NCBI GenBank assembly: GCA_035516965.1
Contig: DATIZR010000061.1
Location: 77,557 to 141,556, forward strand
Length of the DNA: 64,000 nt
DNA from: Nitrospirota bacterium
GTDB lineage: Bacteria; Nitrospirota; UBA9217
Direction of reading: 5' to 3'
This document shows positions 34,458-57,128 of the stretch, in pieces. The translations under genes were made by a program, and so were the position numbers. Each line of letters begins with the position of its first letter. Position 1 is the first letter of the stretch. Below the pieces are notes generated by a model. The model saw only the letters and a list, made by a program, of their open reading frames with translations, ran no database searches and was not told the DNA's origin.

Positions 34458-37004
34458 TCAGAAGTCATAGACCCCGTCCAGAAAATCACGGGCATAACGA
34501 TCAACGGCGGCATCATCATACAGCACAGCATCCAGCTGCCGGGTATAGGAAAAAAGCCTTCCCATCTGGTCCAGCAGCCCCTCCGCGTCCGCCTGTGGCA
34601 CATTCGCGAGCCGGGCTACGATCAGGTCCCCTTTGGTCTTGATGTTGAACCCATACGCTCCCAGAATTGCGGCGAGAAGCTGCAGCCGCCTCGATCGCTT
34701 GGTCATGTCCGTGGCTCCTCCGGCGAACCTGAAATAAATATGGTTATTTCTGGTGTTTTCGCTGCAATAGCAGTCGAGGATGATGAAGTGGTAGCCGAAT
34801 TTAAGGCTGATGTTCGCATACTCCCGCGAAATGACGGCCATGTTCGCCTCCACCCGTCCGCCAGTCTCGGTCGTAATGTCCGGCACCCGCAGCATGCTCG
34901 CCATGAAATCGTTGACCTTGAGCGGCACCGCATCGGAGCGCCAGAGCCCCGGCCTGGTCATGCCGGTGATGATCGCGCGCAACGGAAGAGACGTGACCTG
35001 CTCCGCGGCGACCTGCTTCTTCCCTTGCGGATTGTCCAGACCGCCGCCGATATCGATCAGCAGAATATCCGCCGGTATTGGCAGGTCCAGTTTCACGGCT
35101 CCCGCCTTGACCCCGCGTTCCGCGCCTTCGATCAGCGCGGCTACCGCTTTCTCATGGATGAACCGCAGGATGTCGTGCATCGTCCTGCAGGCCCTGGGCG
35201 TAAACTCGTCGCGGAGGGGATCAACAAGATTCAGTGGCGCGATATAACGGAGGAGGTACCGCTTCTTGCGGAACTCGAGGAGTTCTTCCAGTCTCACGCT
35301 GTCATCCTGCGCCCGTTCCAGCACCGGTTTGGCCAGACCCTGGTACAGCGTTGCGCCATCGCCGTCCACCTGGACCGTGATCTCCTGCCCCTGGCTCAGC
35401 ACCTGGGTCGCATTCCCGGCGTTGACGACCGTCGGTATCTTGAACTCCCGGCACAGGGTTGCCATGTGACTCGTGGGCGTTCCGCTGTCGGTGATGATCG
35501 CGGACACGCCGGTCATCACTCGGACAAAATGAGACGAATCGTGGCGGGCAACCAGGACGGCCCCCCGGGGGATGGCATCCAATTCACTGTCCTGCTTGAG
35601 AATGAAAACGCGGCCTGCAGCCGCGCCTTTGTACACGGCAAGACCGCGGTTGCGCAGAACGATGCGCGCGGCGGGCGGGCCGGGAACCGCGTCCGCTGGG
35701 CGAGCCGTCTCGTGGGACAGCCTGAGCGGACGCGACTGAAGAATATAGGGTTCCCCACGGCTGTCAAGGGCCCACTCGATGTCCTGCGGGCCCTTGAAGT
35801 GTTGTTCGACCCGGAGAGCGAGGCTGGCCAGTTCCGTGACCTGCGTGCGGGACAGGCTCGGCCGGCTGCGCTTGTCCTCCGGCGTTGCAACCGACGTAAC
35901 GCCCTCGTTCCCCATTACGACCATCGTGTCCTTGGCGCCCGTTCTTTCCTCGATCAATTCCGGGGGGTCGCCCTTTTTCACCCTGAAAAGATCAGCGTCC
36001 GTCTCTCCTTCAACGATCGCGGTGCCCAGACCCCAGGCTGCGTTGATGACCATGGTTCCAGGATCTCCCTGGGGATCTGACGTGTACACAACACCGCTTG
36101 TCAAGGCAGGCACCATCGCCACGCAGGCCACGGCCATTTTCATGCTCCGGATGTCATGGCCCATCCTGCGTCGATACGCCGCAGCCTTCTCCGAGAAGAG
36201 ACTGGCCACCACCTCCCGGTAGGCCTTGTCCACGGCGGCCGTCTCCAAGGGAACGTTCAGGACCGTCTCGAACTGTCCCGCAAAGGAGAATTCGCCATCC
36301 TCCTCAACGGCGCTGCTCCGAACGGCCAGTGTGCAGCCGGCGCCGCAGCGCGACTTGATTTTTCTGACGGCCTTCTCGAGGGCGCGGCTGAGCTCCGGGG
36401 GCAGGGCCCCTTTCCGGACCCGCTCCTGCACTTCGGGAAGGGAAGGCTCAGCGGCAAAACCTTCGTCCTGAGATGGGTCGAATATGCCGTTCTGGCGCAT
36501 GAACGCGTCGAAGGCGCGGGTCGTCACCGCGAAAGCGTCCGGGACATGCAAGTGGAGGGCATTTTTAATCTCGGCGAGGTTGTTGTTCTTGCCGCCCAGG
36601 GCGGCCGACATGTCGCCGCTCACCTGTTCGTAGAAAAGAACGAGTGCATCCGGCATGGGGACCGTCTCGTCGATAACACGCCGTATGTGCGCGTCTATTT
36701 CCATGAACCGTTGCCGAAGCCGGGGATACCGGCCCCGCGTGAGCGTGTCGAAGCCATTGACCGATTCTTGCACAGCCGCGGACAGTTCGCCGTAGGAACG
36801 CCTGACATACTGGATGTCGAAGAGATAGTCCCCTCCCAGCGTATCGCCCATTTCGGTGATCACTTCGAGCGATCGGTTGTTCCGGTCGAGGACCTCGCGG
36901 AAGTCATGAAACAGCCGGCCGAACTCATCCTGACTGCGACCGCGGGGGCCGGCAAAACGGAACAGCGATTTTAATTGTGAGGTCAGTCGGTGCATTGCCA
37001 TCAT
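34458..37004 (-). CDS. PEP-utilizing enzyme family protein (pyruvate,water dikinase/PEP synthase-like) with atypical C-terminal domain
   Basis: 848 aa: N-terminal ATP-grasp-like PPDK_N domain, central phospho-His swivel domain (GTPTSHMATLCREFKIPTVVN), C-terminal about 300 aa without the obvious PEP-binding TIM-barrel signature. Confidence 0.75.
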   Translation of the reverse strand: MMAMHRLTSQLKSLFRFAGPRGRSQDEFGRLFHDFREVLDRNNRSLEVITEMGDTLGGDYLFDIQYVRRSYGELSAAVQESVNGFDTLTRGRYPRLRQRFMEIDAHIRRVIDETVPMPDALVLFYEQVSGDMSAALGGKNNNLAEIKNALHLHVPDAFAVTTRAFDAFMRQNGIFDPSQDEGFAAEPSLPEVQERVRKGALPPELSRALEKAVRKIKSRCGAGCTLAVRSSAVEEDGEFSFAGQFETVLNVPLETAAVDKAYREVVASLFSEKAAAYRRRMGHDIRSMKMAVACVAMVPALTSGVVYTSDPQGDPGTMVINAAWGLGTAIVEGETDADLFRVKKGDPPELIEERTGAKDTMVVMGNEGVTSVATPEDKRSRPSLSRTQVTELASLALRVEQHFKGPQDIEWALDSRGEPYILQSRPLRLSHETARPADAVPGPPAARIVLRNRGLAVYKGAAAGRVFILKQDSELDAIPRGAVLVARHDSSHFVRVMTGVSAIITDSGTPTSHMATLCREFKIPTVVNAGNATQVLSQGQEITVQVDGDGATLYQGLAKPVLERAQDDSVRLEELLEFRKKRYLLRYIAPLNLVDPLRDEFTPRACRTMHDILRFIHEKAVAALIEGAERGVKAGAVKLDLPIPADILLIDIGGGLDNPQGKKQVAAEQVTSLPLRAIITGMTRPGLWRSDAVPLKVNDFMASMLRVPDITTETGGRVEANMAVISREYANISLKFGYHFIILDCYCSENTRNNHIYFRFAGGATDMTKRSRRLQLLAAILGAYGFNIKTKGDLIVARLANVPQADAEGLLDQMGRLFSYTRQLDAVLYDDAAVDRYARDFLDGVYDF

Positions 37005-37587: not shown

Positions 37588-39060
37588 TTACTTTTGCCTC
37601 ACCCCTGAGGCCGCGGAGTAACCGGAGGGGGCCTCTTCACCCTTCTCGACATACTGCGGCAGTTCCACGGTAAAGGTAGTTCCGACCCCCACCTTGCTCT
37701 CCACTCGGATTTCGCCCTGATGATTTTTGATGATGCCATAACTGACCGAGAGACCGAGCCCCGTTCCAGCGTCGCCCTTGGTGCTGAAAAAGGGGTCGAA
37801 GATGTGGGGCAGGAACTCGGGGGGTATCCCCCTGCCTGTGTCCATCACGGTCACCTCCGTGGACGCGCGGCTCTTTCCCGGCCTCGACGAAATGACGATC
37901 CTGCCGCCCGGGGACGTCGCCTGGACGGCGTTCGTGACGAGATTGACGAGGACTTGCTGTATCTGGTGCTCATCGACGAAAACATGCGGCAACCCGTCGC
38001 CGAGGCGGATGCTTGTCTCGATATTGGAGACATCTATCATGTTCTGGACCAGCGTCAGCGTCTTCTGGATCACGACATTGATGTCGGCCTCCCGCGGGTT
38101 CGCGTCCTTGGGCTTGGAAAAGTCGAGCAGGTTTTTTACGATCTGCCGGATCCTATCAGTTTCCGCCTCCACCTTCTGCATCAAATCGATCCGGTCCTCT
38201 TCCCCCAGATTTTCGTACACCTCCGCGTAGGTCTGGGCGATCATGGAAATGTTGTTCAGCGGATTGGTCAGTTCGTGCGCCACGCCTGCCGTCAGGATGC
38301 CGAGGGACGCAAGCTTCTTGGACTGGATGATCTCTTCCTCGCGATGGGCCAGTTCCTCGGACATGGAATTGATGGCCGTGATGACCGCGCCGAGCTCGTC
38401 TCGGGTACGGAAGCCCTCTATCTTGTGGAAGTTGCCCTCAGAGATGGACTTCGTCATCGTTTCGATCGCCCTGAGCGATCGCACGATCTTCTTTGAGATG
38501 AAATGGCTGATAAAAAGGGCCGAAGCAAGGATGGCCCAGAAGGAAAAGATCAGGATGTTCTTCGAACTCAGGATGATCTCGTTTACGCGCCGCCGCTCCA
38601 GCTGGGTGATGGAATCGGAGTATTCCTTCAGTTTGCGCCCTGCCGACCGAATCTTCGCCTCCAGATAGGGGTCCGGAAGGTTCTTGCTCGGCGCTTCGCC
38701 GATAGTATCGGAATAGGCCTTGAGCAGGGTCTGGAGTTTTTCCAGGTCAGTCTCCCCGATTGCCGGAATGATGTCTTTCTTCGCTGCTTCGAGGGTTTCC
38801 TGGGTAGCAGAGATCTTTTCCCGTATCTCCCCCAGCGCCATCCGATCGCGGTAGAGAAAGTAGTTCTTTTCCGACAGCCTCATGGTGAGAAAGGACGCGT
38901 TCAGATCGTCGGCGATCTCCACGAACCGGAGCTTCGTGAGGACGAGCGTCATGTTCTGGAAGGCGAAGAAGCCGATCAGAATGATGAACGCCGCGTTGAT
39001 ACTGTTGGAAATAATGAGTTTTTTCTCGATCTTCATGCTTCGAGTATTATACTCTATCAC
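37588..39060 (-). CDS. sensor histidine kinase (TM sensor domain with EKNYFLY motif, HAMP, HisKA, HATPase_c)
   Basis: H-box GVAHELTNPLNNI, N/G boxes; N-terminal sensor paralogous to the kinases at 51734 and 60578. Confidence 0.85.
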   Translation of the reverse strand: MIEYNTRSMKIEKKLIISNSINAAFIILIGFFAFQNMTLVLTKLRFVEIADDLNASFLTMRLSEKNYFLYRDRMALGEIREKISATQETLEAAKKDIIPAIGETDLEKLQTLLKAYSDTIGEAPSKNLPDPYLEAKIRSAGRKLKEYSDSITQLERRRVNEIILSSKNILIFSFWAILASALFISHFISKKIVRSLRAIETMTKSISEGNFHKIEGFRTRDELGAVITAINSMSEELAHREEEIIQSKKLASLGILTAGVAHELTNPLNNISMIAQTYAEVYENLGEEDRIDLMQKVEAETDRIRQIVKNLLDFSKPKDANPREADINVVIQKTLTLVQNMIDVSNIETSIRLGDGLPHVFVDEHQIQQVLVNLVTNAVQATSPGGRIVISSRPGKSRASTEVTVMDTGRGIPPEFLPHIFDPFFSTKGDAGTGLGLSVSYGIIKNHQGEIRVESKVGVGTTFTVELPQYVEKGEEAPSGYSAASGVRQK

Positions 39061-39232: not shown

Positions 39233-39796
39233 TCAGGTTCCTGTGCTTCTCTGGTGTTCGGAAGGAAGATCGGCAATGTACATGGTCTCCGTAAGGGACA
39301 GGTCTATCTGGTAACCTAATTCCTGGTTCGCCCGTCTGATGAAACGAATTATTTCCCTGATATCTGCCGACTCCCCGAAGAATATTTTGCGAATTCCTTT
39401 CTGAGCGTTGATCAGGAGGTTGTACCGCCCACGGAAGACCCCGATCAAAAGCCACAGACCGACCCCGACCATGAGCCAGATGACGAGAGGCGCGATGGGG
39501 ATTCCCAGCGTAAGAGATCTTATTTTGACGAGATAAACACCGCCTTCTGCCATGATGAATGCCGCGATGACAAGGACAAGGCCGGTCACCACCAGGACGA
39601 AACCCGAAAGAAACCGCAGAAACGGGTGTCGTGATTTTGAATCGTGGCGCAGTTGGACCCCCCGGATCTCCTCTTTTGGCACGGTGACCAGGATCTTGTC
39701 CCCTTCCACTTGACTGATACCTGATGGCGAAATTTGTACCGTTGAGCATCTCATGCGAGTATGATAAAAACTCCGAATAAAATAAATTAAGAGCAC
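39233..39796 (-). CDS. hypothetical membrane protein
   Basis: Several hydrophobic helices; start uncertain. Confidence 0.4.
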   Translation of the reverse strand: MLLIYFIRSFYHTRMRCSTVQISPSGISQVEGDKILVTVPKEEIRGVQLRHDSKSRHPFLRFLSGFVLVVTGLVLVIAAFIMAEGGVYLVKIRSLTLGIPIAPLVIWLMVGVGLWLLIGVFRGRYNLLINAQKGIRKIFFGESADIREIIRFIRRANQELGYQIDLSLTETMYIADLPSEHQRSTGT

Positions 39797-39863: not shown

Positions 39864-41399
39864 TCAAACTTCCGCGAATTCCTTGGCTGCTTCCGCGGCT
39901 TCCGCGTCCACCTTGGTTTCCTTCTTGGCAGTTGAAAGAACCGCGGCGACCACGTTCAGCACCAGGAGGACGCCCATCACCACGATAAAGCCCCGCATGA
40001 AGGCGTGGTCCTTCATTTCGACGGGGATGCTGCCATTGCTGAAAATATGCTGAACAGCACCATACCCCTTATCAGCCAGGTATTTATGCTCCAGTTTGGT
40101 GAAGATCAAGCCTGAAATATCAACACCGAAGATCAGCCCGAGGGACCGCATCATGTTCAAGACACCGCCAGCAAGGCCCAGTTTTTCCCTGGGAGCGGCG
40201 CCCATGATCGCGCTGTTGTTGGGAGGTGTGAACATGCCCATCCCGACGCCCAGGAGCACTAATTCACCGATCAATAAGATAAAATGTGAGCGAACTCCCA
40301 GGAACAACAGGGCAAAACAAGCGAGTGCAGACACCATCATGCCCGAGGCCGTCATGATCCTCGAACCGTATTTGTCGGAGATATGGCCCGAAAACGGCGC
40401 AACGAGCGCCATGGCGAGTGGAATAGGCATAAGAAGGGTGCTCGTCAAGACCGGGCTGTAATTAAGCACTTTTTCGAGATAGAACGGCATCAGGAAGAGG
40501 ACGGCAAACAGAACGTAATACGACATCATGCCGGTCAGATTGCCGATCAGGAATGTGCTGTTCTTGAACAATTTCAGATCGATGAGCGGATGCGCAACCC
40601 GCAGTTCCGTCAGCACGAACAGGCCGAGCAGGACACAGGCGTGTATGAAGTAGACAATGATGGTGTACGAACCCCATCCCAGGCTTACTACTTCGTTGAA
40701 TCCCAGCACGAGAAATGCGAGGCCCGACGCGAAGAATATCGTTCCGAGATAATCGATTGACTCTTTTTTCTCGGCTTTTTCATTGGGCGGCAGAACAAAC
40801 AGGGCGGCGACCGTGCCAAGGATGCCGATCGGAATATTGATGTAGAACACGGAACGCCAACCGATCGTGGAGATCAGCACGCCTCCCACGAAAGGACCAA
40901 CGGCCATGGCAATCGCCTGTACGGCTCCCTGAATGCCGATTGCCTTGCCCCGCTCAGTCCCCGGAAAAGCCTGAGTGATCAACGCGACGGAATTCGCCTG
41001 CAAAAGCCCGGCGCCGATTGCCTGGAGGACACGAGCGGCAATAAGGAATATGGCAGATGTAGCCATTCCGCAGAACAGCGACCCTACGGTAAAGACGACA
41101 AATCCCGCATTATACAGCCTCGATCTGCCGAACATGTCGGCGAGCCTTCCGAAAAAGGGAAGGAAGATAGTCAGAGTGAGCATGTACGACATTGCCACCC
41201 ATTCGATGAGGGACATGGAAACATTGAACTCGCTTTTCAGGGTCGGCATGGCAACGTTGACAATGCTGACGTCCAGTGCGGACATCGTCGCGCCGATCAG
41301 AACATTAATCAGAATGAACCACTTCCAGGTAGGCCTGGCGGAGAAAATCGGATGGGGAAACTGCTTAAGACTCTTAATGGAAAACATGGTAAATGCCAT
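39864..41399 (-). CDS. MFS transporter, DHA2 (EmrB/QacA, 14-TMS) family
   Basis: 511 aa, 14 predicted TM segments, MFS motif A (GRLADMFGRSR). Confidence 0.9.
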   Translation of the reverse strand: MAFTMFSIKSLKQFPHPIFSARPTWKWFILINVLIGATMSALDVSIVNVAMPTLKSEFNVSMSLIEWVAMSYMLTLTIFLPFFGRLADMFGRSRLYNAGFVVFTVGSLFCGMATSAIFLIAARVLQAIGAGLLQANSVALITQAFPGTERGKAIGIQGAVQAIAMAVGPFVGGVLISTIGWRSVFYINIPIGILGTVAALFVLPPNEKAEKKESIDYLGTIFFASGLAFLVLGFNEVVSLGWGSYTIIVYFIHACVLLGLFVLTELRVAHPLIDLKLFKNSTFLIGNLTGMMSYYVLFAVLFLMPFYLEKVLNYSPVLTSTLLMPIPLAMALVAPFSGHISDKYGSRIMTASGMMVSALACFALLFLGVRSHFILLIGELVLLGVGMGMFTPPNNSAIMGAAPREKLGLAGGVLNMMRSLGLIFGVDISGLIFTKLEHKYLADKGYGAVQHIFSNGSIPVEMKDHAFMRGFIVVMGVLLVLNVVAAVLSTAKKETKVDAEAAEAAKEFAEV

Positions 41400-41814
41400 C
41401 TCCTTTCACGTTGTGCACATAATAATCCATACATCCGGACAGAGAAGAGGAGATGCCTTCGCCGGGCGCCCTTGCAAAAAGCCGATACACGCTTTTCGGT
41501 TTGGGGGTCCGGTTCATACGCGGAACCAGGAAGATCCCCGGCTTGAGCCGATAGAAAACGCTTGTATGAGTGTCCTTATTTATTGCAACCGGGGGGAGCG
41601 GATCCGTTCGATCCAACCCGCGGTATTTCGTATCCGTGTCCGGATCAGACTCCCCGCGTATGCTCACCATGCTGCCGTAAAAGGAAAAGTCGATGGTGAT
41701 ATGGCGGTCGTCCTTTGCTTCGAGCATGGCCGGCGCCGGTTTGGCGCTGACAAGCTGAAGCAGGCTGAACAACAGCATGAGCAGCGTCGTTCCGAGGAAA
41801 CGCGTACTGCCCAT
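41374..41814 (-). CDS. secreted hypothetical protein (short paralog of the 46481-47269 product)
   Basis: Signal peptide; shares the HITIDFSFYGSMVSIRGESDP block with the longer paralog but lacks its C-terminal half; possibly truncated. Confidence 0.45.
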   Translation of the reverse strand: MGSTRFLGTTLLMLLFSLLQLVSAKPAPAMLEAKDDRHITIDFSFYGSMVSIRGESDPDTDTKYRGLDRTDPLPPVAINKDTHTSVFYRLKPGIFLVPRMNRTPKPKSVYRLFARAPGEGISSSLSGCMDYYVHNVKGDGIYHVFH

Positions 41815-41928
41815 TAGTCTGGCATATCGAGCATAATGTATGAAATGTAAGAATGAATGGATATACATTAGTGTTCCCCCACCTGTGAAAACGCCGATTC
41901 CGATACCGCCGGCACACTCGTGCGCCGG

Positions 41929-43170
41929 TCACTCGGGATAGGCAATCCCCCTGGGAATCTCTGCCTGTTCCTTCCTGACGGGCCAGTACCACAGCATCCC
42001 GTCCACGAGCATCAGGACACCGGCCGCCATGAGCCAGAGATTGAACGATGTGAGCAGGCCGAAGCCGAAATAGCTGATGATACCGATGCCGATGCTCAGG
42101 AACGATATCCCCGTCCTGATGAAGGCAAGCCCGGTCCTTGCCCGGGCGTAAATGGTCCGGTAGCAGGCCGCGATCGTCCGCTGGGCCGCCAGAACATTCC
42201 GCTCGCGCGCGAACATGGTGCGCGTCTTGGAGGAAGGCGTCGGATTGAGATAGGTACTGTGTTCGGCAAGGTAGTCTCCCATCCGCGCAAGCATCGTTCC
42301 CTGCGTTTCCCGGCTGATGCCGGTGTCCTCCATAAAATGATAATTCTCCAGGAACTGGATCGTCGCAGCCGTGACCTCGACGAGCGTCTGGTGCCCGGGC
42401 GGTGTAAGACGGGATTTCCGGACGTTCAAATAGATCGGCAACCCGTAAAAGGAGATCGCAACACCGAGGATGAGCACGGAGAAATACAGGACGGGGTTAT
42501 AGGCGATGTCTTTCGATCTCAAGAGCATGTTCGAGATCGCGATCGTGCCAAGGCCCCACCTAAGGAAGGCGAGGCCGGTCCGGGCTTTTGCCAGGTCGGT
42601 CCGGTAGCAGGCCATCCTCGTGCGCCACTGGGCCATCGTGTTCCGCCAGGAGGCAAGGCCCGTCCGCTCGGTGCCGATCAGAAGCCCCACCTTCGCATGA
42701 AGAAAATCCTGAATGTACCATTGGATATCGGAATCAAGGGTTACCCTGAATTCGTACCGGTCCGCCTTGATGTACTTTTTCACGTCCTTCCGCATCGCGG
42801 GACTTTCGGGATTTCTCGCGGCGATTACCACGGTCCCCGATCTCTCTTTCATCACCGGCATCCACTGGTACGATGAAAGGGAGTCCTGGCTGACGGCGGA
42901 GAGCAATTCCGGAGGAATGGGCAGGCGCTCGTCGTATTCAATGGACTTGCAGCGATAGTATGCCGCGAGCGCATCGAGCAGGTGCCTCTTGGTCACGCCA
43001 AACTCCCGGAGCAGTACCCTTTCGAGATCGACTCCCCTGGCCTGAGCCATGCTGACCGCTTCTTCAAGCTCCGTCCGGTTCAGAATCCCCCGGTCCACGA
43101 GAAGGGAAAACTCCGACTCCTGCCGGATCACGGCGTTCGCGAATTCGTCATTTACGAGATCATTCGTCAT
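41929..43170 (-). CDS. MshEN/T2SSE_N-like (c-di-GMP-binding type) N-terminal domain fused to 2 DUF202 (YidH-like) membrane modules
   Basis: N-terminal about 140 aa resembles the GspE/MshE N-terminal domain (LLREFGVTKRHLLDALAAYY..., IKADRYEFRVTLDSDIQ); followed by two repeats of RTxxAxxRTxLAxxRTGLAF plus TM helices characteristic of DUF202. Confidence 0.6.
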   Translation of the reverse strand: MTNDLVNDEFANAVIRQESEFSLLVDRGILNRTELEEAVSMAQARGVDLERVLLREFGVTKRHLLDALAAYYRCKSIEYDERLPIPPELLSAVSQDSLSSYQWMPVMKERSGTVVIAARNPESPAMRKDVKKYIKADRYEFRVTLDSDIQWYIQDFLHAKVGLLIGTERTGLASWRNTMAQWRTRMACYRTDLAKARTGLAFLRWGLGTIAISNMLLRSKDIAYNPVLYFSVLILGVAISFYGLPIYLNVRKSRLTPPGHQTLVEVTAATIQFLENYHFMEDTGISRETQGTMLARMGDYLAEHSTYLNPTPSSKTRTMFARERNVLAAQRTIAACYRTIYARARTGLAFIRTGISFLSIGIGIISYFGFGLLTSFNLWLMAAGVLMLVDGMLWYWPVRKEQAEIPRGIAYPE

Positions 43171-44815
43171 AGTGATTAAAAATAATCGTCCTCCAGGAAA
43201 AGGCCGGCTTGCCGTAATCGGGAACGGTTATCTCCATGTCTCCGTAACAATAGGGGAATTGTTTCCTCATGCGTTCGGCGGGCAGAATCCAGCGATATCC
43301 GTCAGCGATGAGCACAAGACCGACGACGATGAGCAGCGTGTTAAAGATCGTCCAGCCCGGGGAAGCCGTGCCGAAATAGGCCATAAGGCCCGCGCCCACG
43401 GAAGTGATGCTCATGCCTGTCCTGACGTAGGCCAGACCCGTCCGCGCGACTGCCATGACGGTGCGGAGTCTGGCCATGACGCCCCGGCGGTCGGCGAGCA
43501 CCGTGCGTTCGAGGGCGACTCCTGTCGTGGCCCAGATGCCGGGCAGCTGGGTTGCCGTGACCGGCGGCCCGTTCCTGTCTTTCTTCGAACCCGAGCGTTT
43601 GTGACCGGGAGGAAACGTCAGGTCCCAGATGGTATCCTTATCGAGCACGTTGAGAACGGACCGGTATCCTTCGATCCCCGCCATTCTGCCGCCGAAATAC
43701 CAGTGGAGACCCTCCGCGGACATTAGGACACCGGCGATGACGAGGGAAACGTCGAAGACCGTCCACCCGCTTGTTTGAAATTGCCTCATCAACCCGATGC
43801 CAAGACCGGTGAAGGCAATGCCGGTCCTGGTAAATGCCAGTCCCGTTCTTGCCTTGGCAAGCTTTGTACGGTGGCCGGCCAGCGAGGTCCGCTCCTCCGC
43901 CATGTCGGTCCGGTCGCTTGCCAGATATCTCCGTCTCATGACCGGTGACAGGTTCTCCCAGTCGGCCCGGAGCTCCGTCGCTCCCTGCATCTCTCCCGTG
44001 CGGCTGAAAAGAGCGTGTCCGCTGCTCAAATCGTCACGCAGAACGCGGGAGCCCCAACTCGCCGGCGTGCGGGTCGCGTCGATCGGCTTGCCGGCGATCC
44101 CTCTCGAGGGCAGATACCATTTGATCCCGTCATAAACCATGACGATCCCGGCGACCAGGAGCGGTGTTTCCAATATAACGTACCAGTTAGCGCCGAGCAT
44201 ACGCAAGAAAAGGAGGGCGATGACGATGAAGGCGACGCCGGTCCTGATAAAAGCCAGACCGGTTCTGCCCTTCGCGAACAGCGTACGGTAATGCGCATAT
44301 GTCGACCGCCGGTAGGCGAAGAGGGTCCGTACGCGCGCAAGCGGCGTCCGTCCGCCCGAGATGCTGAAATTGGGGTTCACGTCGAAATTGTGCTCGATAA
44401 TGCGGATGAGGTCGGCTGCCAGGGCGACCCGGAAATCGATCCGATCGACACCCAGCGTCTTCTTGATGTCCTCCGCCACCTCCGGATCTTCGGGGCGGCA
44501 GGCGACGACCTCGGCCCGGTTCTCTCGAACGGAAAGGGGGAACCAGAGCGCCTTCTTTTGATGCTCAAGGTCGAGTCGCAGGACGACAAAATAGGACGCG
44601 ACAACGCTTTCATCGTATTCCACGAAGGGAAGGCCGTAATACTCGGAGAGGCAGAAGAGGACCTCGTGTTTAGGCACACCCTTCCGGACCAGCAGCTCTT
44701 CCACAGAGACGCCCGCTTCGCTCGCCTCCCGGTGCAGAGTCTCAAGCTCGGCAGCGCCAAGGAAGCCGCGCATCACCAGGCGATTGAATTTTGTCATTAT
44801 CATAGTCACTTTCAC
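43160..44815 (-). CDS. MshEN/T2SSE_N-like N-terminal domain fused to 3 DUF202 membrane modules (tandem paralog)
   Basis: Same architecture as the downstream gene: T2SSE_N-like domain then three RTxLAxxRTxLA + TM repeats. Confidence 0.6.
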   Translation of the reverse strand: MKVTMIMTKFNRLVMRGFLGAAELETLHREASEAGVSVEELLVRKGVPKHEVLFCLSEYYGLPFVEYDESVVASYFVVLRLDLEHQKKALWFPLSVRENRAEVVACRPEDPEVAEDIKKTLGVDRIDFRVALAADLIRIIEHNFDVNPNFSISGGRTPLARVRTLFAYRRSTYAHYRTLFAKGRTGLAFIRTGVAFIVIALLFLRMLGANWYVILETPLLVAGIVMVYDGIKWYLPSRGIAGKPIDATRTPASWGSRVLRDDLSSGHALFSRTGEMQGATELRADWENLSPVMRRRYLASDRTDMAEERTSLAGHRTKLAKARTGLAFTRTGIAFTGLGIGLMRQFQTSGWTVFDVSLVIAGVLMSAEGLHWYFGGRMAGIEGYRSVLNVLDKDTIWDLTFPPGHKRSGSKKDRNGPPVTATQLPGIWATTGVALERTVLADRRGVMARLRTVMAVARTGLAYVRTGMSITSVGAGLMAYFGTASPGWTIFNTLLIVVGLVLIADGYRWILPAERMRKQFPYCYGDMEITVPDYGKPAFSWRTIIFNHYDE

Positions 44816-45136: not shown

Positions 45137-45559
45137 CTACACTCCCACGACAAACACGGGGCAGGGAGCGCGGTCAATCACCTTCTCGACGACATGGTCG
45201 CCGAAGAGCCGGCTGAAGAGCCCCTTCTTCTTTTTCGAACCCATGATGATGAGGTCGCACCTTTCCTCTTCGGCCACCTCAACGATGCGCTGCGGTACGT
45301 CGCCCTGCTCCAGGCGGGTCTTGATGAGCGCGCCCTCCCGCTCGGCGATGCTCTTGATCTGCCTGGCGGCCTCCGAACCGCCGTCATCAAGCACGTCTTG
45401 CAGGTTCTTGATGCCGGTCAGGTTGAGGTCGCCGTCAAAGGGCTGGACGACCTTGACCACGGTGATCCAGGTCTTTTCGTCCCGGGCGAGCCTAATCCCC
45501 TGTTCGAGGACCTGCTTGTGTCCGTTCAATGCGATCAGGACCTTCCGATAACCTTTCAT
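45137..45559 (-). CDS. universal stress protein (single Usp domain)
   Basis: 140 aa UspA fold, C-terminal G-x2-G-x9-G(S/T) ATP-binding motif (IMGSKKKKGLFSRLFGDHV). Confidence 0.85.
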   Translation of the reverse strand: MKGYRKVLIALNGHKQVLEQGIRLARDEKTWITVVKVVQPFDGDLNLTGIKNLQDVLDDGGSEAARQIKSIAEREGALIKTRLEQGDVPQRIVEVAEEERCDLIIMGSKKKKGLFSRLFGDHVVEKVIDRAPCPVFVVGV

Positions 45560-45615
45560 CTCTTCAGCTCCTTAATCCGACAGCGTGCACGCTTGCAGGC
45601 TTGTCAGTTTGTGTC

Positions 45616-46479
45616 TTACTTCACGATCAGGATCGGGCACGATGCATGGGCGATCGTGCGGTCCGCGGTGCTTCCCATGATCGCCTTGTTCACGCCGCGC
45701 CAGCCGTGGGTCCCCATGACGATGAGGTCGCTCTTCAGCCGTTCGGCCATCTCGACGATCTTGTCTCCCGCGTGCCCTTCCTGGACGACTGCCTTGATCG
45801 GGACGCCGATGTCGGCTGCCAGCTTTTTCGCGACCGACGCGATCTTCTCGGCCTCCTGATACAGGCTCTTGCTGATCGACTCGGTCTTGAAGAAGTCCAT
45901 CATCTCCTCGTACCGCGGGATGACGTACAGGACGGATACCTCGCCACCATCCTCCTTTGCGAGTTCGCCGGCCCGGATCAGCGCTTTCCTGCTCGAAGCC
46001 GACCCGTCAAAAGGCACCAGCAGGGAGGAGTACGTTCCCGAGCACCGGGTGCAGTCCTTTTTCACGACCAGCACGTCGCAGGAGGCGTTCAGGATGATCT
46101 GGGAAGTCACGCTGCCCATCAGAAGCCGTCTGAGCCCCTTCCTTCCGTAGGTGCCGAGCGCGATGAGGTCGGCGTTCTTTCCCCGCGCCGTTTCCAGGAT
46201 CACCTCGGGCGGCTCGCCCTGGCAGACGTAGGACTCGACGCTCCCGTTCAGACCGAATTCGTCCTGCAGGTTCTTCTTCGCGGTCATGCAGACCTGCGTG
46301 CCGAATGCGAACCGCTTGTCCACCTGCTCGGGAAGGATAGCGAACTCCTCCTGATCGAAATAGACCGCGTGGACCAGGCAGAGCTTTCCGCCGTGCTGCT
46401 TCACCCGGAGCGAAGCCTCTTTCAGCGCCGCTTTACTCGATGCTGATTCATCATATCCGACGACAATCGAGCTATACAT
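45616..46479 (-). CDS. tandem universal stress protein (2 Usp domains)
   Basis: 287 aa with two Usp repeats (…LIALGTYGRKGLRRLLMGSV…, …LIVMGTHGWRGVNKAIMGST…). Confidence 0.85.
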   Translation of the reverse strand: MYSSIVVGYDESASSKAALKEASLRVKQHGGKLCLVHAVYFDQEEFAILPEQVDKRFAFGTQVCMTAKKNLQDEFGLNGSVESYVCQGEPPEVILETARGKNADLIALGTYGRKGLRRLLMGSVTSQIILNASCDVLVVKKDCTRCSGTYSSLLVPFDGSASSRKALIRAGELAKEDGGEVSVLYVIPRYEEMMDFFKTESISKSLYQEAEKIASVAKKLAADIGVPIKAVVQEGHAGDKIVEMAERLKSDLIVMGTHGWRGVNKAIMGSTADRTIAHASCPILIVK

Positions 46480-46480
46480 A

Positions 46481-47269
46481 TCAGTGAGAGCCTCCGCCCT
46501 TTCTGAAGATCATGCCGACACCGAAACCCGCCGTCAGCGCGATCCCGATCGAAAGGAAGCCATAGACGGCGCCGCTGTCCTTGGCCATGTTCGCCAGCAT
46601 TTTGACCGTGCCCACCTGCTCCACATTGACCTTCGACTCCGCCTGCTCCACCACGCTGCCGTTCTTCACGGCATAGACCGTGACGAGGTAATCGCCGGGC
46701 GCCGCCTGATAGGGCCAGTCCGTCAGGATGTAGTACTCCTGCCTGCCGGCAGCCGTTGTCTTGGTCGTGATCCCGCCGAACGCGGAGGTATAGACCTTGG
46801 AGTCCTCCTTGAACTTGACGAATTCATCGAACCACTTGGCCTTCTCTTCTTCATTGGTGACCGGGGTCACCTCCACATGTTTTTCGAGCGCGGGATAACC
46901 GATGACATGTTTTTCCTGCTCTTCCTTGCTGAGCATATCGTCGAGCTTCCTGGTGCTGTACACGGCGTAAAAATTAGGCGTCTGCTCGAACTTGAGCTGC
47001 CCCACGTTCATCCACAGTACCCCGGCGACCTTGCCCTTCTGCTTCAGGACCTGATGGCCTTCGGGGGAGGTCATCTTGATGACCAGGTCGACATTGGGGT
47101 CCGACTCGCCCCGTACGCTCACCGTGCTGCCGTGATAGAAGAAGTCGATCGTGATGTGGTCATGGTTCGCCTTTGCCGTAAGCATGGCGAAAGCGTCATG
47201 GGTAATGCCGAGTTGCAGCATACAGATTGCAAATAAAGCTGCTATGATAAATTTGAAATTCGGTTTCAT
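46481..47269 (-). CDS. secreted/membrane-anchored hypothetical protein (signal peptide, C-terminal TM helix)
   Basis: 262 aa; translationally coupled (ATG/TAA 1-nt overlap) to the upstream TSUP permease gene; paralog of 41374-41814. Confidence 0.55.
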   Translation of the reverse strand: MKPNFKFIIAALFAICMLQLGITHDAFAMLTAKANHDHITIDFFYHGSTVSVRGESDPNVDLVIKMTSPEGHQVLKQKGKVAGVLWMNVGQLKFEQTPNFYAVYSTRKLDDMLSKEEQEKHVIGYPALEKHVEVTPVTNEEEKAKWFDEFVKFKEDSKVYTSAFGGITTKTTAAGRQEYYILTDWPYQAAPGDYLVTVYAVKNGSVVEQAESKVNVEQVGTVKMLANMAKDSGAVYGFLSIGIALTAGFGVGMIFRKGGGSH

Positions 47270-48237
47270 TAGTGTCCCCCTGCCTGTGAAAGTAGTAACG
47301 AAGGTGCAAGCGTTAGTTCAAACACGATCTTGACGGTCACGGCGAGCACGATCCCCGCCAGGAGGATCTTGAGCTGCTCGGCTTTCAGCTTCCTGCCGAA
47401 GACGGCGCCGACCTGCGCGCCGACCGTGGAGCCCAGGAGCAGGAGCACGGCGAGGACGAAGTCCACGCTGTGGTTCGTATAGGCCTGAAGGAAGGTGACC
47501 TCGATGCAGGTGAACAGGATCTGGAACAGGCTCGTTCCGACCACGACGTGCATCGGCATCCGGAGGATGTAGACCATGATCGGCACCATCAGGAACCCGC
47601 CGCCCACCCCCATGATCGCGGCGAGCACGCCCACGAAACCGCCCAGGACGATCGGGACGAGGATCGAATGGGTGATGCCAGATTTTTCAAAGCGTGTCTG
47701 AAAGGGCAGGGACTTGAGGAACCTGCCCACGGCGGACTCGGTCTCTTCCTTCTCATCCGCTGCAGCGGTATCCTTTTTCTTTTTCATGCTCTGCAGGCTT
47801 TCGATGAACATGTACACGCCCACGATGCCGAGCATGAACACGTATGTCATCTTGATGACGAAATCGGCGTTGCCCATGGCGTGGAGCAGCTTGATCGCCT
47901 GCACGCCGACGATCCCTCCGGCGAAGCCGCCCACCAGGAGGTACAATCCCATTTTGAAGTCCACGTTGCCGACCTTCCAATGCGCGTACGTGCCGGACGT
48001 CGAGGCCGCCACGATCTGGTTCGAATCGGTCGCCGCCGCCACCGTCGAAGGAATACCGAACATGATGAGGAGCGGCGTCATGAGGAATCCGCCGCCCACG
48101 CCGAATAGGCCGGAAAGCAGGCCCACAGCGAGCCCGAGCCCGACAGGGATCAGGATATTGATGCTGGTCAGTGCCACAGGTAGGTACAGGTACATTTGTC
48201 TTACTCCTTTTCGCAGGTTAAATTTATCTCTCAGCAA
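47269..48237 (-). CDS. TSUP family permease (TauE/SafE, DUF81)
   Basis: Two 4-TM repeats with a hydrophilic linker, typical DUF81 GxxxGxxGxGGG motifs. Confidence 0.85.
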   Translation of the reverse strand: MLRDKFNLRKGVRQMYLYLPVALTSINILIPVGLGLAVGLLSGLFGVGGGFLMTPLLIMFGIPSTVAAATDSNQIVAASTSGTYAHWKVGNVDFKMGLYLLVGGFAGGIVGVQAIKLLHAMGNADFVIKMTYVFMLGIVGVYMFIESLQSMKKKKDTAAADEKEETESAVGRFLKSLPFQTRFEKSGITHSILVPIVLGGFVGVLAAIMGVGGGFLMVPIMVYILRMPMHVVVGTSLFQILFTCIEVTFLQAYTNHSVDFVLAVLLLLGSTVGAQVGAVFGRKLKAEQLKILLAGIVLAVTVKIVFELTLAPSLLLSQAGGH

Positions 48238-48379
48238 CCGAAATCACCGAGGGTTCAGAGAACTGCTCCCTCGTGAAAGATGAACATCTTCCTCGGTGTG
48301 CTCTGTGTCCTCTGCGGTAAATCCTTCTTCACGTTCCTCTGGATGCCCTTGTGAAGATCCCGGTCCCGGATTTTCCGTA

Positions 48380-48874
48380 TTACACCAATGCCGCCTGGCG
48401 GGTCATGGTGACGATCGGCCGCGAGGCGGTCCTGACCAGCCTGTTCAGGTCCTTCGCGGTGACGTTCCCCGACTCGGTGATCAGCGGGCTCAGCACAACC
48501 TTATCGATCCCCGCATGGCTCTTCAGATAAGTCCGGATACCAGATACCGCGTCCAGGTCCGTGTCCTGGACCTTCACGGTAATCCCCTCCTGAGCGCATG
48601 TCACCACGAGCTTTTCGACCAGTTTCCTCGACCGCTCGGTCGCCTCAGGAGCAGGGCCGGCCATGATCTGACGCGCCGTATCATGCTCGCCGGCCTCGGC
48701 GAAGGTGACAGCCGTCATAAGCGTCTCGAACTTGTCGATTAGGTTCCTCTTCTTCTGGACAAGCAGGAGCGTGATGTCCTCATACATCGCCTTTGCGAGT
48801 TCGACGGCGTAGGACACCCCCTCTTCGAGATTCTCATCACGGTAGGTCACGAACAGCAACTGTCTCTTTCCCAT
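48380..48874 (-). CDS. Usp-like protein with inserted helical segment (FAEAGEHDTARQIM motif)
   Basis: Usp-like beta-strands at both ends; internal segment shared with 57469-57960 and with the small ORF 58014-58178. Confidence 0.6.
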   Translation of the reverse strand: MGKRQLLFVTYRDENLEEGVSYAVELAKAMYEDITLLLVQKKRNLIDKFETLMTAVTFAEAGEHDTARQIMAGPAPEATERSRKLVEKLVVTCAQEGITVKVQDTDLDAVSGIRTYLKSHAGIDKVVLSPLITESGNVTAKDLNRLVRTASRPIVTMTRQAALV

Positions 48875-49418
48875 GTGTCCAACCTCCTTTACCAGCGCAT
48901 TTCTGTATTATATGTTAGCAATAGCGATGCCAACGCATAACATACTGTATTTATGAACTATTTAATATTTTATGGAATTTGTTCCGTTTCAGAATTGAAC
49001 GCACGTGAACACTGATGGAGAAAACAGGATAGGATAGAAGCAGGGAAAGATGGTCAGAGTCCTTTATTAACGGGGCTGAAATGCTTTATGTCCGATATTT
49101 TGCCTCCCCTAAAGCGGCTTTCAGAGAATTATTTGATGTGTTTAAATATGGAACAGCGCTGCATTGATTATTCTCAAGAGATCCTTGCTTCGCTCCCAAC
49201 GATCCTTTCCATACCTCAGAGGGAGTTGTACGCGGTTACAAAGGACTGATTTTTCAATCGTGAATTACGAGGAGAAAGTTTCAGAGGCTCGGAACGGGGA
49301 AGGTGAAATATCAGCGTGGCTAATTTACCGGAGGATGCTATCCTGAACTAGCATTTTTATCTCAGGGAACTGTCCCGGATGGCTGACTCGGAAAATCTCG
49401 TGCTGCAAGACCATTCGT

Positions 49419-50071: not shown

Positions 50072-50263
50072 TGTATCATTAGTAAGTAACAAATCGAATT
50101 CTTTACAAAACGGCAAGAAAATTTCTCGCAGAGGCGCAGAGAAAATAAAAAATAATTCGCCATGAAAGACTTTCGGGTTTTGGTTTTAAACTCTGCGTGC
50201 TCCGCGAGAGACGCCTTTAGCTTCTGGTTTTGATCCGGCTTGTCCGGGTTAGGATTATAACTT
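50072..50263 (-). repeat. copy B (inverted) of the roughly 195-bp repeat element also at 21540-21745
   Basis: Reverse complement aligns to 21540-21745 with about 90% identity; lies between the FabZ-like gene and the sigma54 regulator gene. Confidence 0.6.
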
Positions 50264-50265
50264 CG

Positions 50266-51615: not shown

Positions 51616-51733
51616 AACGAAAATTCCTTCCGGAGTGGGACGCGGATGAACACGGTTTTCACCGATACGTCCGGCAAAGCGTCTTTCCCGTTCCCTCCGC
51701 AACGATCAGCTCTAGCCACGTCCCGATCCCTGT

Positions 51734-54929: not shown

Positions 54930-55203
54930 CAACACGATATCCCCAACCGCGGCTCCCGGTTGGTCGGCCTCCGGACCATCCTTACTGTCATTTCTCCGAA
55001 TCCTATCATTCCCTGGGCGCCGTTCGTGATCCTCATGACCGTCAGGGTCAGGCTCATGAAGAGCCGATGAGAATGCCGGGCGCGCTCTCTTGCTTGCCGG
55101 GTGCTGTCCTCGGCCGGCGTACCGCAAGCAGCCCCGGGTGCAGGCCGCCAAAAAAGGCTGAAGGGAATGACCCTTCAGCCTCGTGCATTTGCCGGCTGCT
55201 CCT

Positions 55204-57127: not shown

Positions 57128-57128
57128 C

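What the first reader, a model, noticed from the sequence alone, without database searches (positions are those of the whole stretch)
41929..44815. Tandem paralogs fusing an MshEN-like (c-di-GMP-binding T2SSE_N) domain to multiple DUF202 membrane modules
Both proteins begin with a domain resembling the N-terminal domain of GspE/MshE ATPases, which in MshE is a high-affinity c-di-GMP receptor. There is no ATPase domain; instead 2 or 3 repeats of the DUF202/YidH module (RTxLAxxRTxLA motif plus TM helices) follow. A PAS-GGDEF cyclase is encoded 9 kb away. I do not recognise this architecture as characterised. It could be a membrane-embedded c-di-GMP effector, possibly gating a channel or interacting with the adjacent TSUP/USP modules.
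Basis: partly seen in the sequence, partly recalled or inferred. Interest (0 to 1): 0.65.

Follow-up and report, generated by a model that had tools for sequence, protein, structure and literature searches.

The report
Paired arginine-ladder DUF202 membrane proteins

Summary
Two overlapping minus-strand genes, pA (43160-44815, 551 aa, probable start 44803) and pB (41929-43170, 413 aa), encode paralogs (32% identity). Each has an MshEN/GSPII-fold N-domain, no ATPase, and three (pA) or two (pB) DUF202 modules.

The c-di-GMP interpretation is not supported. The arginine and essential glycine of both half-motifs are replaced by S/T and a conserved Phe (motif I) and D/S and a conserved Glu (motif II). 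None of 240 relatives matches the relaxed published motif. None reaches the curated NCBIfam cut-off. A GGDEF gene is nearby in only 1 of 22 related loci.

The distinctive feature is different. Each module starts with 5-6 exact R-T-x-L-A-x-x heptads (Arg invariant) that form one continuous helix with TM1. The last three Arg match Pfam DUF202 positions 1, 8 and 15, which are K24 and R31 (positions 1 and 8) in yeast Vtc1, the pore-lining residues of the VTC channel.

The pA-then-pB pair is conserved in every complete locus examined, down to 33-37% identity. It is often clustered with a HAMP histidine kinase, a PEP-synthase-like phosphotransferase, TauE/Alph_Pro_TM and USP genes.

Best reading, inferred and of low-to-moderate confidence: a heteromeric Arg-lined conduit or binding track for an anionic ligand. 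This is a new variant of known domain families.

The parts
43160..44815 (-). pA: upstream paralog (551 aa from GTG 44815; probable true start ATG at 44803, 547 aa). GSPII-fold N-domain plus three DUF202 modules plus a conserved C-terminal tail.
   Evidence: ORF; Pfam; start inferred from homologues and P0001; AF2 model pLDDT 78, pTM 0.70.
44375..44794 (-). pA N-domain (residues ~8-147): complete GSPII/MshEN fold, with the c-di-GMP motif degenerate (T8-K9-F10 and S37-V38-E39 in place of the two RLG triplets).
   Evidence: Foldseek: PilF GSPII-A is the top hit; MshE 5htl_B has TM-score 0.72 normalised to the target. HMMER alignment to PilF GSPII-B. Relaxed motif regex gives 0 hits. No NF053729 hit.
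44096..44350 (-). pA module A1 (residues 156-240): six R-T heptads (R156, 163, 170, 177, 184, 191) continuous with TM1, then TM2.
   Evidence: DUF202 27.3 bits, with profile positions 1/8/15 = R177/184/191. Helices 152-203 and 209-236 in P0001 numbering.
43643..43933 (-). pA module A2 (residues 295-391): six heptads (R295 to R330), then TM1 and TM2.
   Evidence: DUF202 35.2 bits, with R316/323/330 at profile positions 1/8/15. Helices.
43259..43507 (-). pA module A3 (residues 437-519): five heptads (R437 to R465), then TM1 and TM2. This is the module that pB lacks.
   Evidence: DUF202 37.1 bits, with R451/458/465 at profile positions 1/8/15.
41929..43170 (-). pB: downstream paralog (413 aa). 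Its start codon lies inside the last codons of pA (11-nt overlap). GSPII-fold N-domain plus two DUF202 modules.
   Evidence: Identical to P0121, labelled as from a Nitrospirota MAG. AF2 model pLDDT 72, pTM 0.48.
42691..43116 (-). pB N-domain (residues ~19-160): complete GSPII/MshEN fold, with S19-E20-F21 and D48-L49-E50 in place of the two RLG triplets and A42 in place of the Gln of motif I.
   Evidence: Foldseek: top hits are PilF GSPII-A (a non-binder), GSPII-B, X. citri PilB-N in complex with PilZ, MshE and XpsE-N. HMMER alignment. NF053729 22.3 bits, below the cut-off of 38.
42415..42666 (-). pB module B1 (residues 169-252): six heptads (R169 to R204), then TM1 and TM2.
   Evidence: DUF202 19.4 bits when scanned alone, below the gathering score of 23.4, but collinear with the other modules.
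41959..42222 (-). pB module B2 (residues 317-404): six heptads (R317 to R352), then TM1 and TM2.
   Evidence: DUF202 24.5 bits, with R338/345/352 at profile positions 1/8/15.
37588..39060 (-). HAMP-HisKA-HATPase sensor histidine kinase. A conserved downstream neighbour of the pair, directly adjacent to or overlapping pB in many loci.
   Evidence: Pfam. Synteny in 12 of 15 genome loci and in L016, where it overlaps pB.
34458..37004 (-). PEP-synthase-like phosphotransferase (848 aa). It has the ATP-grasp (PPDK_N) and phospho-His swivel domains only, with unassigned N-terminal (1-117) and C-terminal (570-848) regions. It is co-conserved with RT-heptad DUF202 proteins.
   Evidence: Linked to three different DUF202 architectures.
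45137..48874 (-). Upstream syntenic block on the same strand: 164-aa ORF (48380-48874), TauE/TSUP (47269-48237), Alph_Pro_TM (46481-47269), tandem-USP (45616-46479), USP (45137-45559).
   Evidence: Pfam. Conserved order in most of the 15 genome loci. TauE and Alph_Pro_TM also lie near the pair in L013 and L016, and near a single-hairpin DUF202 gene.

Best explanation
pA and pB are subunits of one inner-membrane complex. Each has a cytoplasmic GSPII-fold domain that has lost the c-di-GMP site and most likely serves as a protein-interaction or regulatory cap. The N-domains of XpsE/EpsE and of Xanthomonas PilB act that way with their partner proteins. Each domain is tethered to DUF202 hairpins. 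In every hairpin, a helix of about 50 residues starts in the cytoplasm as an Arg-Thr-x-Leu-Ala-x-x ladder and continues as a weakly hydrophobic TM1 rich in small residues. A strongly hydrophobic TM2 faces the lipid. I infer that the five ladder helices (three from pA, two from pB) pack with their conserved L-R-A-T faces inwards, as the five TM1 helices of the yeast VTC channel do. This would give a strongly cationic funnel and pore, or binding track, for an anionic and probably phosphate-rich ligand. The complex is genetically tied to a two-component system and to a PEP-synthase-like ATP-dependent phosphotransferase, and probably works with them. Shown here: the domain content, the heptad ladder and its invariance, the loss of the c-di-GMP motif, the conserved pairing and overlap of the two genes, the synteny, and the register with DUF202 profile positions 1, 8 and 15. 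Inferred: heteromer formation, inward-facing arginines, pore or anion handling, and any coupling to the phosphotransferase.
For: Pairing: pA lies immediately upstream of pB in all 14 complete genome loci, and a pA fragment sits upstream of pB in the truncated L007. The pair is also kept in L016 (37% identity, labelled Desulfobulbus MAG), L017-19 (33% identity, unrelated neighbourhood) and L021-22. Start and stop overlap in every locus where ORFs were traced (8-14 nt on the annotated starts, longer on the longest ORFs). Ladder: Arg occupies heptad position a in 100% of 29 heptads across about 41 sequences. Thr occupies b in 79%, Leu/Met/Phe occupy d, and Ala/Ser/Gly occupy e in 99%. These four positions lie on one helical face. 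The stalks hold 41 Arg/Lys against 7 Asp/Glu. AF2 models show heptads and TM1 as single helices of 48-57 residues. TM1 is less hydrophobic than TM2 in 4 of 5 modules. Homology: four of the five modules pass the Pfam DUF202 cut-off on their own. Their last three Arg sit at profile positions 1, 8 and 15. These positions are K24/R31/N38 in Vtc1 and R13/R20/R27 in YidH. hhalign against YidH gives probability 92.8% in the same register. K24 and R31 line the VTC polyphosphate pore, R31 lies at its constriction, and mutating them abolishes vacuolar polyphosphate (PMC9911596). Context: RT-heptad DUF202 proteins of three architectures lie next to the same PEP-synthase-like enzyme: the MshEN pair, a 16-heptad single hairpin, and DUF202-REC. 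They often also lie next to TauE/Alph_Pro_TM and HAMP-HK/REC.
Against: There is no experimental or structural evidence for any bacterial DUF202 protein. The module profile does not find VTC chains in the PDB. Direct hhalign to Vtc1 is weak, with probability 7%, so the VTC link is transitive through Pfam. The modules have two TM helices, not three. A natural variant seen in six samples has 2+2 modules, so five is not an invariant number. Foldseek found no significant solved match for the membrane part. The distant L017 branch lacks the kinase and phosphotransferase neighbours. The ligand is unknown.
Confidence: 0.35

Rival explanations
1. Membrane-embedded c-di-GMP effector: the N-domains bind c-di-GMP as MshE does and gate the DUF202 part.
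For: The N-domains have the full MshEN/GSPII fold. The hydrophobic scaffold of the 53-residue motif is partly kept: NF053729 gives weak sub-threshold matches in 20 of 41 pB-type proteins. A PAS-GGDEF gene lies 8.9 kb away.
Against: Arg at position 1 and Gly at position 3 of both half-motifs, and the Gln of motif I, are replaced. Phe and Glu at the Gly positions are conserved across the family. Equivalent or milder changes abolish binding in MshE, in PilF GSPII-A and in XpsE. None of 240 relatives matches the relaxed motif. None reaches the NF053729 cut-off. GGDEF linkage is seen in 1 of 22 loci. The best structural match is the non-binding GSPII-A.
Confidence: 0.06
2. Accessory sensor or scaffold of the neighbouring two-component system: the pair conducts nothing. 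It forms a membrane complex whose Arg-rich stalks and GSPII domains bind the HAMP kinase, response regulators or the phosphotransferase and modulate them, in the way other accessory membrane proteins control their kinases.
For: The HAMP kinase gene follows or overlaps pB in many loci, including the 37%-identity branch. Related single-hairpin DUF202 proteins carry a fused REC domain. GSPII domains that lack the c-di-GMP site are known protein-binding modules, for example X. citri PilB-N with PilZ among the fold hits.
Against: It does not explain an invariant ladder of about 29 arginines on one helical face, or its homology to pore-lining residues. The L017-19 branch keeps the pair without any adjacent kinase.
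Confidence: 0.25
3. A component of a type II secretion or type IV pilus system, as some database names suggest ('type II secretion protein').
For: The N-domain is homologous to those of GspE, PilB and MshE. One source gives that name.
Against: There is no ATPase domain. No T2SS or T4P genes occur in the window neighbourhood or in any related locus examined. The name is transferred from the N-domain alone.
Confidence: 0.02

Closest known systems
Yeast VTC complex transmembrane domain (Vtc1/Vtc3/Vtc4; Pfam DUF202), the polyphosphate channel
   Same: Same Pfam family. The basic residues at profile positions 1 and 8 (Vtc1 K24 and R31, pore-lining, spaced i and i+7) align with Arg in all five modules. 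Five DUF202 units are encoded by the pA and pB pair, and five make the VTC pore. The locus is genetically associated with an ATP-using phosphotransfer enzyme.
   Different: There are two TM helices per unit, not three. The Arg ladder is extended to 5-6 heptads reaching about 35-40 residues into the cytoplasm. The units are concatenated in two polypeptides. There is no SPX or TTM polymerase domain. Direct sequence similarity to Vtc1 is weak. One lineage has 2+2 units.
E. coli YidH and other bacterial single-domain DUF202 proteins
   Same: Clear homology: hhalign probability 92.8%, with R13/R20/R27 of YidH in register with the last three ladder Arg. They are inner-membrane proteins of unknown function.
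   Different: YidH is a 115-aa protein with three TM helices, a single module and only three heptad Arg. It has no cytoplasmic domain.
MshE N-domain (MshEN) and PilF GSPII-B and GSPII-C: c-di-GMP receptors
   Same: Same two-subdomain fold, with TM-scores of 0.6-0.72 normalised to the target. The hydrophobic helix-bundle scaffold is retained.
   Different: The ligand-contacting Arg, Gly and Gln of the 24-residue motifs are absent. No ATPase follows the domain.
Non-binding GSPII domains: PilF GSPII-A, XpsE/EpsE N1, X. citri PilB-N
   Same: PilF GSPII-A is the best structural match. All have a degenerate c-di-GMP motif. By precedent they have protein-interaction or structural roles.
   Different: Those domains sit on secretion or pilus ATPases. 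Here the domain is fused to membrane hairpins, and its partner is unknown.
Long-heptad single-hairpin DUF202 proteins (for example P0303, P0310, P0360), uncharacterised
   Same: Same RTxLAxx ladder and the same 'ARTxLAFIRTG' entry into a two-TM hairpin. Same neighbourhood: PEP-synthase-like enzyme, TauE/Alph_Pro_TM, HAMP-HK/REC.
   Different: One hairpin preceded by 12-16 heptads. No GSPII domain. Some carry a C-terminal REC domain.

Membership tests
MshEN / GSPII (T2SSE_N) domain fold | Match to Pfam PF05157 above the gathering score | tested here: met
   pB 42.4 bits and pA 38.5 bits against a cut-off of 23.1. The model covers only the C-terminal alpha/beta subdomain.
MshEN / GSPII (T2SSE_N) domain fold | Two-subdomain fold: N-terminal four-helix bundle plus alpha/beta subdomain | tested here: met
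   Foldseek aligns 135-148 columns of the AF2 models to MshE, PilF GSPII-A and GSPII-B, XpsE-N and X. citri PilB-N, with probability 1.00 and TM-scores of 0.56-0.72 normalised to the target.
c-di-GMP-binding MshEN receptors | Two copies of RLGxx(L/V/I)(L/V/I)xxG(L/V/I)(L/V/I)xxxxLxxxLxxQ, or the authors' relaxed version | tested here: not met
   No relaxed-motif hit in pA, pB or 240 homologues. RLG is replaced by SEF and DLE in pB and by TKF and SVE in pA.
c-di-GMP-binding MshEN receptors | Score at or above the curated cut-off of NCBIfam NF053729 (c-di-GMP_motif) | tested here: not met
   pB 22.3 bits against a cut-off of 38; pA has no hit. The best family member has E = 3.1e-6, about 27 bits by extrapolation.
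c-di-GMP-binding MshEN receptors | Measured binding of c-di-GMP | not testable with these tools
   Needs ITC or DRaCALA on purified N-domains.
GspE/PilB/MshE secretion ATPases | C-terminal T2SSE ATPase domain with Walker motifs | tested here: not met
   No T2SSE hit in Pfam. TIGR02538 matches only model positions 5-138.
DUF202 (PF02656; YidH / VTC membrane domain) | Match to PF02656 above the gathering score | tested here: met
   Whole proteins score 61.1 bits (pA) and 26.5 bits (pB) against 23.4. Single modules score 27.3, 35.2, 37.1 and 24.5 bits; B1 scores 19.4, below the cut-off. hhalign to YidH gives probability 92.8%.
DUF202 (PF02656; YidH / VTC membrane domain) | Basic residues at profile positions 1 and 8 (Vtc1 K24 and R31), at the start of TM1 | tested here: met
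   Arg at positions 1, 8 and 15 in all five modules, invariant across the family.
VTC-type polyphosphate channel | Three TM helices per unit | tested here: not met
   AF2 models and hydropathy show two TM helices per module.
VTC-type polyphosphate channel | Pentameric assembly with TM1 lining a pore | not testable with these tools
The 3+2 module count fits, but a 2+2 variant exists.
VTC-type polyphosphate channel | Coupled polyphosphate polymerase (TTM domain) and SPX regulation | tested here: not met
   No TTM or SPX domain in pA, pB or the neighbours. The only associated phosphotransfer enzyme is PEP-synthase-like.

The most novel reading that the evidence does not exclude
The RT-heptad DUF202 proteins are the membrane half of a bacterial counterpart of the VTC principle. 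The other half would be the co-conserved PEP-synthase-like enzyme, which has an ATP-grasp and a phospho-His swivel domain plus a private C-terminal domain in place of the PEP/pyruvate barrel. In this reading, an ATP-driven phosphotransferase makes or loads a phosphate-rich polyanion (polyphosphate or another phospho-polymer). It then hands the product to an Arg-lined DUF202 pore assembled from pA and pB, under the control of a two-component system.
Probability: 0.07. Interest if true: 0.9.

Novelty: new variant of a known kind. Interest (0 to 1): 0.5.

Why it matters
Bacterial DUF202/YidH proteins are widespread and have no known function. The only mechanistic information for the family comes from the eukaryotic VTC polyphosphate channel. 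This locus shows a bacterial lineage in which the pore-lining basic motif of that family has been amplified into an invariant arginine ladder of about 40 residues. The ladder is repeated five times across two translationally coupled paralogs, and the locus is tied genetically to a phosphotransferase and a two-component system. That gives a concrete and testable handle on what DUF202 does in bacteria: co-purification, Arg-ladder mutants, and anion or polyphosphate binding and flux. The locus is also a clear negative example for c-di-GMP receptor prediction. A Pfam 'MshEN' hit covers only the non-binding subdomain and should not be read as evidence of c-di-GMP binding.

Tried and rejected
- **Linked pA-pB construct for AF2:** intended to test a five-hairpin assembly.
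- **Module profile against PDB sequences:** no VTC hit. Direct hhalign to Vtc1 is weak. I therefore treat the VTC relation as family-level only.
- **P0300 as a Rosetta-stone fusion:** it joins a pA N-terminus to the C-terminal domain of the PEP-synthase-like enzyme. I rejected it as evidence. It is a single 4.7-kb contig from one sample, and the usual gene order makes an in-frame deletion or an assembly collapse equally likely.
- **Strict 'five modules' rule:** contradicted by a 2+2 variant seen in six samples.
- **GGDEF linkage:** not conserved.
- **Promoter upstream of pA:** no sigma-54-like site lies in the 322-bp gap upstream of pA, and the sigma-70 and terminator scans give counts at or below chance.
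- **Literature:** no paper links MshEN with DUF202, and none assigns a function to bacterial DUF202. The apparent hits in a Bacteroidetes iron paper were 'DUF2023'. YidH was a candidate D-alanine exporter in one screen but showed no export activity.
- **Regex control:** the nearest non-family MshEN proteins also mostly lack the motif (1 of 38 hit), so they are a poor positive control. The curated NF053729 model and the published mutagenesis carry the argument instead.
Full report
**What is there**

On the minus strand, ORF pA (43160..44815, 551 aa from a GTG) is followed by ORF pB (41929..43170, 413 aa). Homologues begin at 'M-x-x-x-K-F', and the identical database protein is 547 aa. The real pA start is therefore most likely the ATG at 44803. 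The pB start codon lies inside the last codons of pA (ATGACGAATGA, an 11-nt overlap), which is the usual arrangement for translational coupling. The two proteins are collinear paralogs: 32% identity over about 390 residues, E = 2e-49. pA carries one extra C-terminal module.

**Domain content**

- Pfam finds MshEN (PF05157) and DUF202 (PF02656) above their cut-offs in both proteins, with 3 DUF202 stretches in pA and 2 in pB. There is no ATPase domain.
- AF2 models built on family alignments have mean pLDDT 78 and pTM 0.70 for pA, and pLDDT 72 and pTM 0.48 for pB.
- Foldseek aligns the whole N-domain (135-148 columns) to PilF GSPII-A and GSPII-B, MshE, XpsE-N and Xanthomonas PilB-N. Probability is 1.00 and the target-normalised TM-scores are 0.56-0.72.

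**The c-di-GMP reading fails**

HMMER alignments to PilF GSPII-A and GSPII-B put these residues at the RLG positions:

| Protein | Motif I | Motif II | Gln of motif I |
|---|---|---|---|
| pB | S19-E20-F21 | D48-L49-E50 | A42 |
| pA | T8-K9-F10 | S37-V38-E39 | A31 |

Across 15 genome loci, the Phe (motif I) and Glu (motif II) at the glycine positions are conserved.

Published mutagenesis sets the benchmark:
- G11L and G40I abolish binding in MshE.
- XpsE lost binding through changes that include G11V, R38G and G40L.
- In PilF GSPII-A, restoring binding required the motif II Arg. Reverting it to Ser gave complete loss, and Gly to Ala cost 10-30-fold (PMC12002112).

The proteins here deviate more than any of these non-binders.

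Further tests agree:
- The authors' relaxed motif matches none of 120 pA-type and 120 pB-type homologues, and none of 82 family representatives.
- The curated NCBIfam model of the 53-residue motif (NF053729, cut-off 38 bits) gives 22.3 bits for pB and nothing for pA. The best member of either family alignment has E = 3.1e-6, about 27 bits.
- The PAS-GGDEF gene 8.9 kb away is real, but a GGDEF domain is found near the pair in only 1 of 22 related loci.

I rate canonical c-di-GMP binding as unlikely. Binding of another ligand or of a protein partner is not excluded.

**The arginine ladder**

Each DUF202 module begins with 5-6 exact heptads, R-T-x-(L/M/F)-(A/S/G)-x-x. The arginines are pA R156-R191, R295-R330 and R437-R465, and pB R169-R204 and R317-R352.

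- Across about 41 sequences per paralog, position a is Arg in 100% of 29 heptads. Position b is Thr in 79%, d is Leu/Met/Phe, and e is Ala/Ser/Gly in 99%. Positions c, f and g vary.
- Positions d, a, e and b fall within about 160 degrees of a helical wheel. This follows from helix geometry. One face is therefore conserved along about 40 residues.
- A run of 5 or more heptad-spaced Arg occurs in about 0.2% of shuffles. pA has three such runs and pB has two.
- The five stalks hold 41 Arg/Lys against 7 Asp/Glu.
- In both AF2 models, the heptads and TM1 form one continuous helix of 48-57 residues, followed by a TM2 helix. There is no third TM helix.
- TM1 is less hydrophobic than TM2 and richer in small residues in four of the five modules. 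This fits an interior-facing TM1 and a lipid-facing TM2.

**Relation to DUF202 and VTC**

Scanned singly, the modules score 27.3, 35.2, 37.1, 19.4 and 24.5 bits against PF02656, whose cut-off is 23.4. The start of each match places the last three ladder arginines at profile positions 1, 8 and 15.

They score 63.9 and 69.8 bits, and my Vtc1 numbering reproduces the K24 and R31 of the paper. In Vtc1, profile positions 1, 8 and 15 are K24, R31 and N38. In YidH they are R13, R20 and R27. hhalign of the module profile against YidH gives probability 92.8% in the same register.

In the VTC cryo-EM structure, five DUF202 units form the channel. TM1 lines the pore, K24 and R31 of Vtc1 face it, R31 helps form the 1.5-Angstrom constriction, and mutating these residues abolishes vacuolar polyphosphate (PMC9911596).

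Caveats:
- The module profile does not find VTC chains in PDB sequences.
- Direct hhalign to Vtc1 is weak (probability 7%), although in the same register.

The relation to VTC is therefore at the level of the Pfam family.

**Distribution and context**

- The family is narrow. An exhaustive search of 1.84 billion 50%-identity representatives with pB gave 435 hits at E <= 1e-3 and 46 at E <= 1e-30.
- Full-length members fall into types of about 400 aa with 2 modules and 490-570 aa with 3 modules.
- Named sources are almost all Nitrospirota MAGs (Ca. Sulfobium, Nitrospiraceae). The window's pB is identical to a protein from a Nitrospirota MAG. One branch at 37% identity is labelled Desulfobulbus.
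- Annotations are generic: 'DUF202 domain-containing protein', 'type II secretion protein', 'YidH'. The architecture is not in the published table of MshEN architectures.
- pA lies directly upstream of pB in every complete locus examined. This covers 14 genome loci (a pA fragment also sits upstream of pB in the truncated L007), the 37% branch L016, the 33% branch L017-19 in an unrelated neighbourhood, and L021-22.

The wider block in the window is: 164-aa ORF, TauE, Alph_Pro_TM, tandem-USP, USP, pA, pB, (MFS), (187-aa membrane protein), HAMP histidine kinase, PEP-synthase-like enzyme. Most Nitrospirota loci share this block. In L016 the kinase overlaps pB. TauE, Alph_Pro_TM, the PEP-synthase-like gene and a REC gene lie alongside on the other strand.

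**A wider system**

The representative search also found single-hairpin DUF202 proteins with 12-16 consecutive RTxLAxx heptads. Some carry a C-terminal REC domain. Their contexts repeat the same partners:
- The DUF202-REC gene is directly followed by a PPDK_N/PEP-utilizer gene of 854-864 aa in L020 and L024/25. Kup and USP genes are adjacent in L020.
- A 16-heptad protein sits with the same enzyme, a REC gene, Alph_Pro_TM, TauE and a HAMP kinase.

The window's enzyme (34458..37004) matches PEP synthase only across the ATP-grasp and phospho-His swivel domains (residues 118-568). It scores 303 bits against an equivalog cut-off of 598. It lacks the PEP/pyruvate barrel, and its C-terminal 280 residues have no Pfam match. 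That C-terminal domain occurs in only 222 database proteins. All of them are this enzyme type, from the same lineages.

**Interpretation**

I consider it well supported (about 0.8) that pA and pB act together as a heteromer. I consider it well supported (about 0.9) that they are not canonical c-di-GMP receptors.

The mechanism I favour, with a confidence of 0.35, is that the ladder helices bundle with their conserved L-R-A-T faces inwards. That would form a cationic cytoplasmic funnel continuous with a TM1-lined pore or binding track for an anionic, probably phosphate-rich ligand. The degenerate GSPII domains would act as regulatory or protein-binding caps.

The 3+2 = 5 module count mirrors the VTC pentamer. 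A natural 2+2 variant seen in six samples shows that the number is not fixed.

The main rival (0.25) is a non-conducting accessory or scaffold complex for the adjacent two-component system. The most novel reading not excluded (about 0.07) is a bacterial counterpart of VTC, in which the PEP-synthase-like enzyme supplies a phospho-polymer to the DUF202 pore.

**Verdict**

The c-di-GMP interpretation is not supported. This is an uncharacterised, lineage-restricted variant of known domain families, with an unusual invariant arginine ladder and a conserved gene partnership. It is worth experimental follow-up. Interest: 0.5.

Noticed in passing
window 41374-41868 (-): The 164-aa ORF between pB and the MFS gene has no Pfam hit. 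Its residues 29-79 are 52% identical (E = 2e-12) to the N-terminus of the Alph_Pro_TM protein at 46481-47269. It looks like a remnant of a duplication or rearrangement that brought the MFS gene here. L003 has a similar fragment.
   Followed up: partly
window 34458-37004 (-): This 848-aa PEP-synthase-like protein has ATP-grasp and phospho-His swivel domains but no PEP/pyruvate barrel. Its N-terminal 117 and C-terminal 280 residues are unassigned. The C-terminal domain occurs in only 222 database proteins from the same lineages, and the gene is co-conserved with RT-heptad DUF202 genes of three architectures.
   Followed up: partly
proteins P0302, P0303, P0310, P0312, P0360, P0376; loci L020, L024-L026: These are uncharacterised single-hairpin DUF202 proteins with 12-16 consecutive RTxLAxx heptads (up to about 110 residues). 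Some have a C-terminal receiver domain. They lie next to the same PEP-synthase-like gene, or next to a Cytidylate_kin2 gene.
   Followed up: partly
locus L023, 3015-4103 (protein P0300): This 362-aa protein joins a pA-type N-domain and first heptad stalk to the last ~150 residues of the PEP-synthase-like enzyme. It is on one 4.7-kb contig from one sample. It may be an in-frame deletion, an assembly artefact or a true fusion.
   Followed up: partly
loci L021 and L022 (protein P0264): A natural variant in which the pA-type protein has lost one hairpin, apparently by recombination between the repeated ARTGLAF-RTG motifs. This gives a 2+2 pair and is seen in six samples.
   Followed up: partly
window 48918-48932 (-) and 53613-53627 (+): There are sigma-54-like -24/-12 elements with one mismatch each. 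TGGCAT-N5-TTGC lies about 45 nt upstream of the 164-aa ORF that heads the syntenic block. AGGCAC-N5-TTGC lies about 40 nt upstream of the PAS-GGDEF gene. The window-wide count of such matches is not above chance.
   Followed up: no
window 39233-39796 (-) and 48380-48874 (-): Two small proteins (a 187-aa membrane protein and a 164-aa protein) have no Pfam or NCBIfam match. Both are conserved in the synteny of most related loci.
   Followed up: no
locus L004 (JBLMWN010000002.1): This 8-kb contig is labelled Betaproteobacteria, yet it carries the pair at 77-80% identity with the same Nitrospirota synteny. It is probably a mis-binned contig.
   Followed up: no
window 27756-29669 (-); locus L020: A Kup-type K+ transporter and USP genes recur beside the DUF202-REC and PEP-synthase-like pair in an unrelated genome. 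This may point to a link with ionic or osmotic stress.
   Followed up: no
window 50230-51759 (+) and 55183-57193 (+): Long ORFs of 509, 276 and 415 aa have no Pfam match. The greedy ORF picking used here may have chosen the wrong strand, and I did not examine them further.
   Followed up: no
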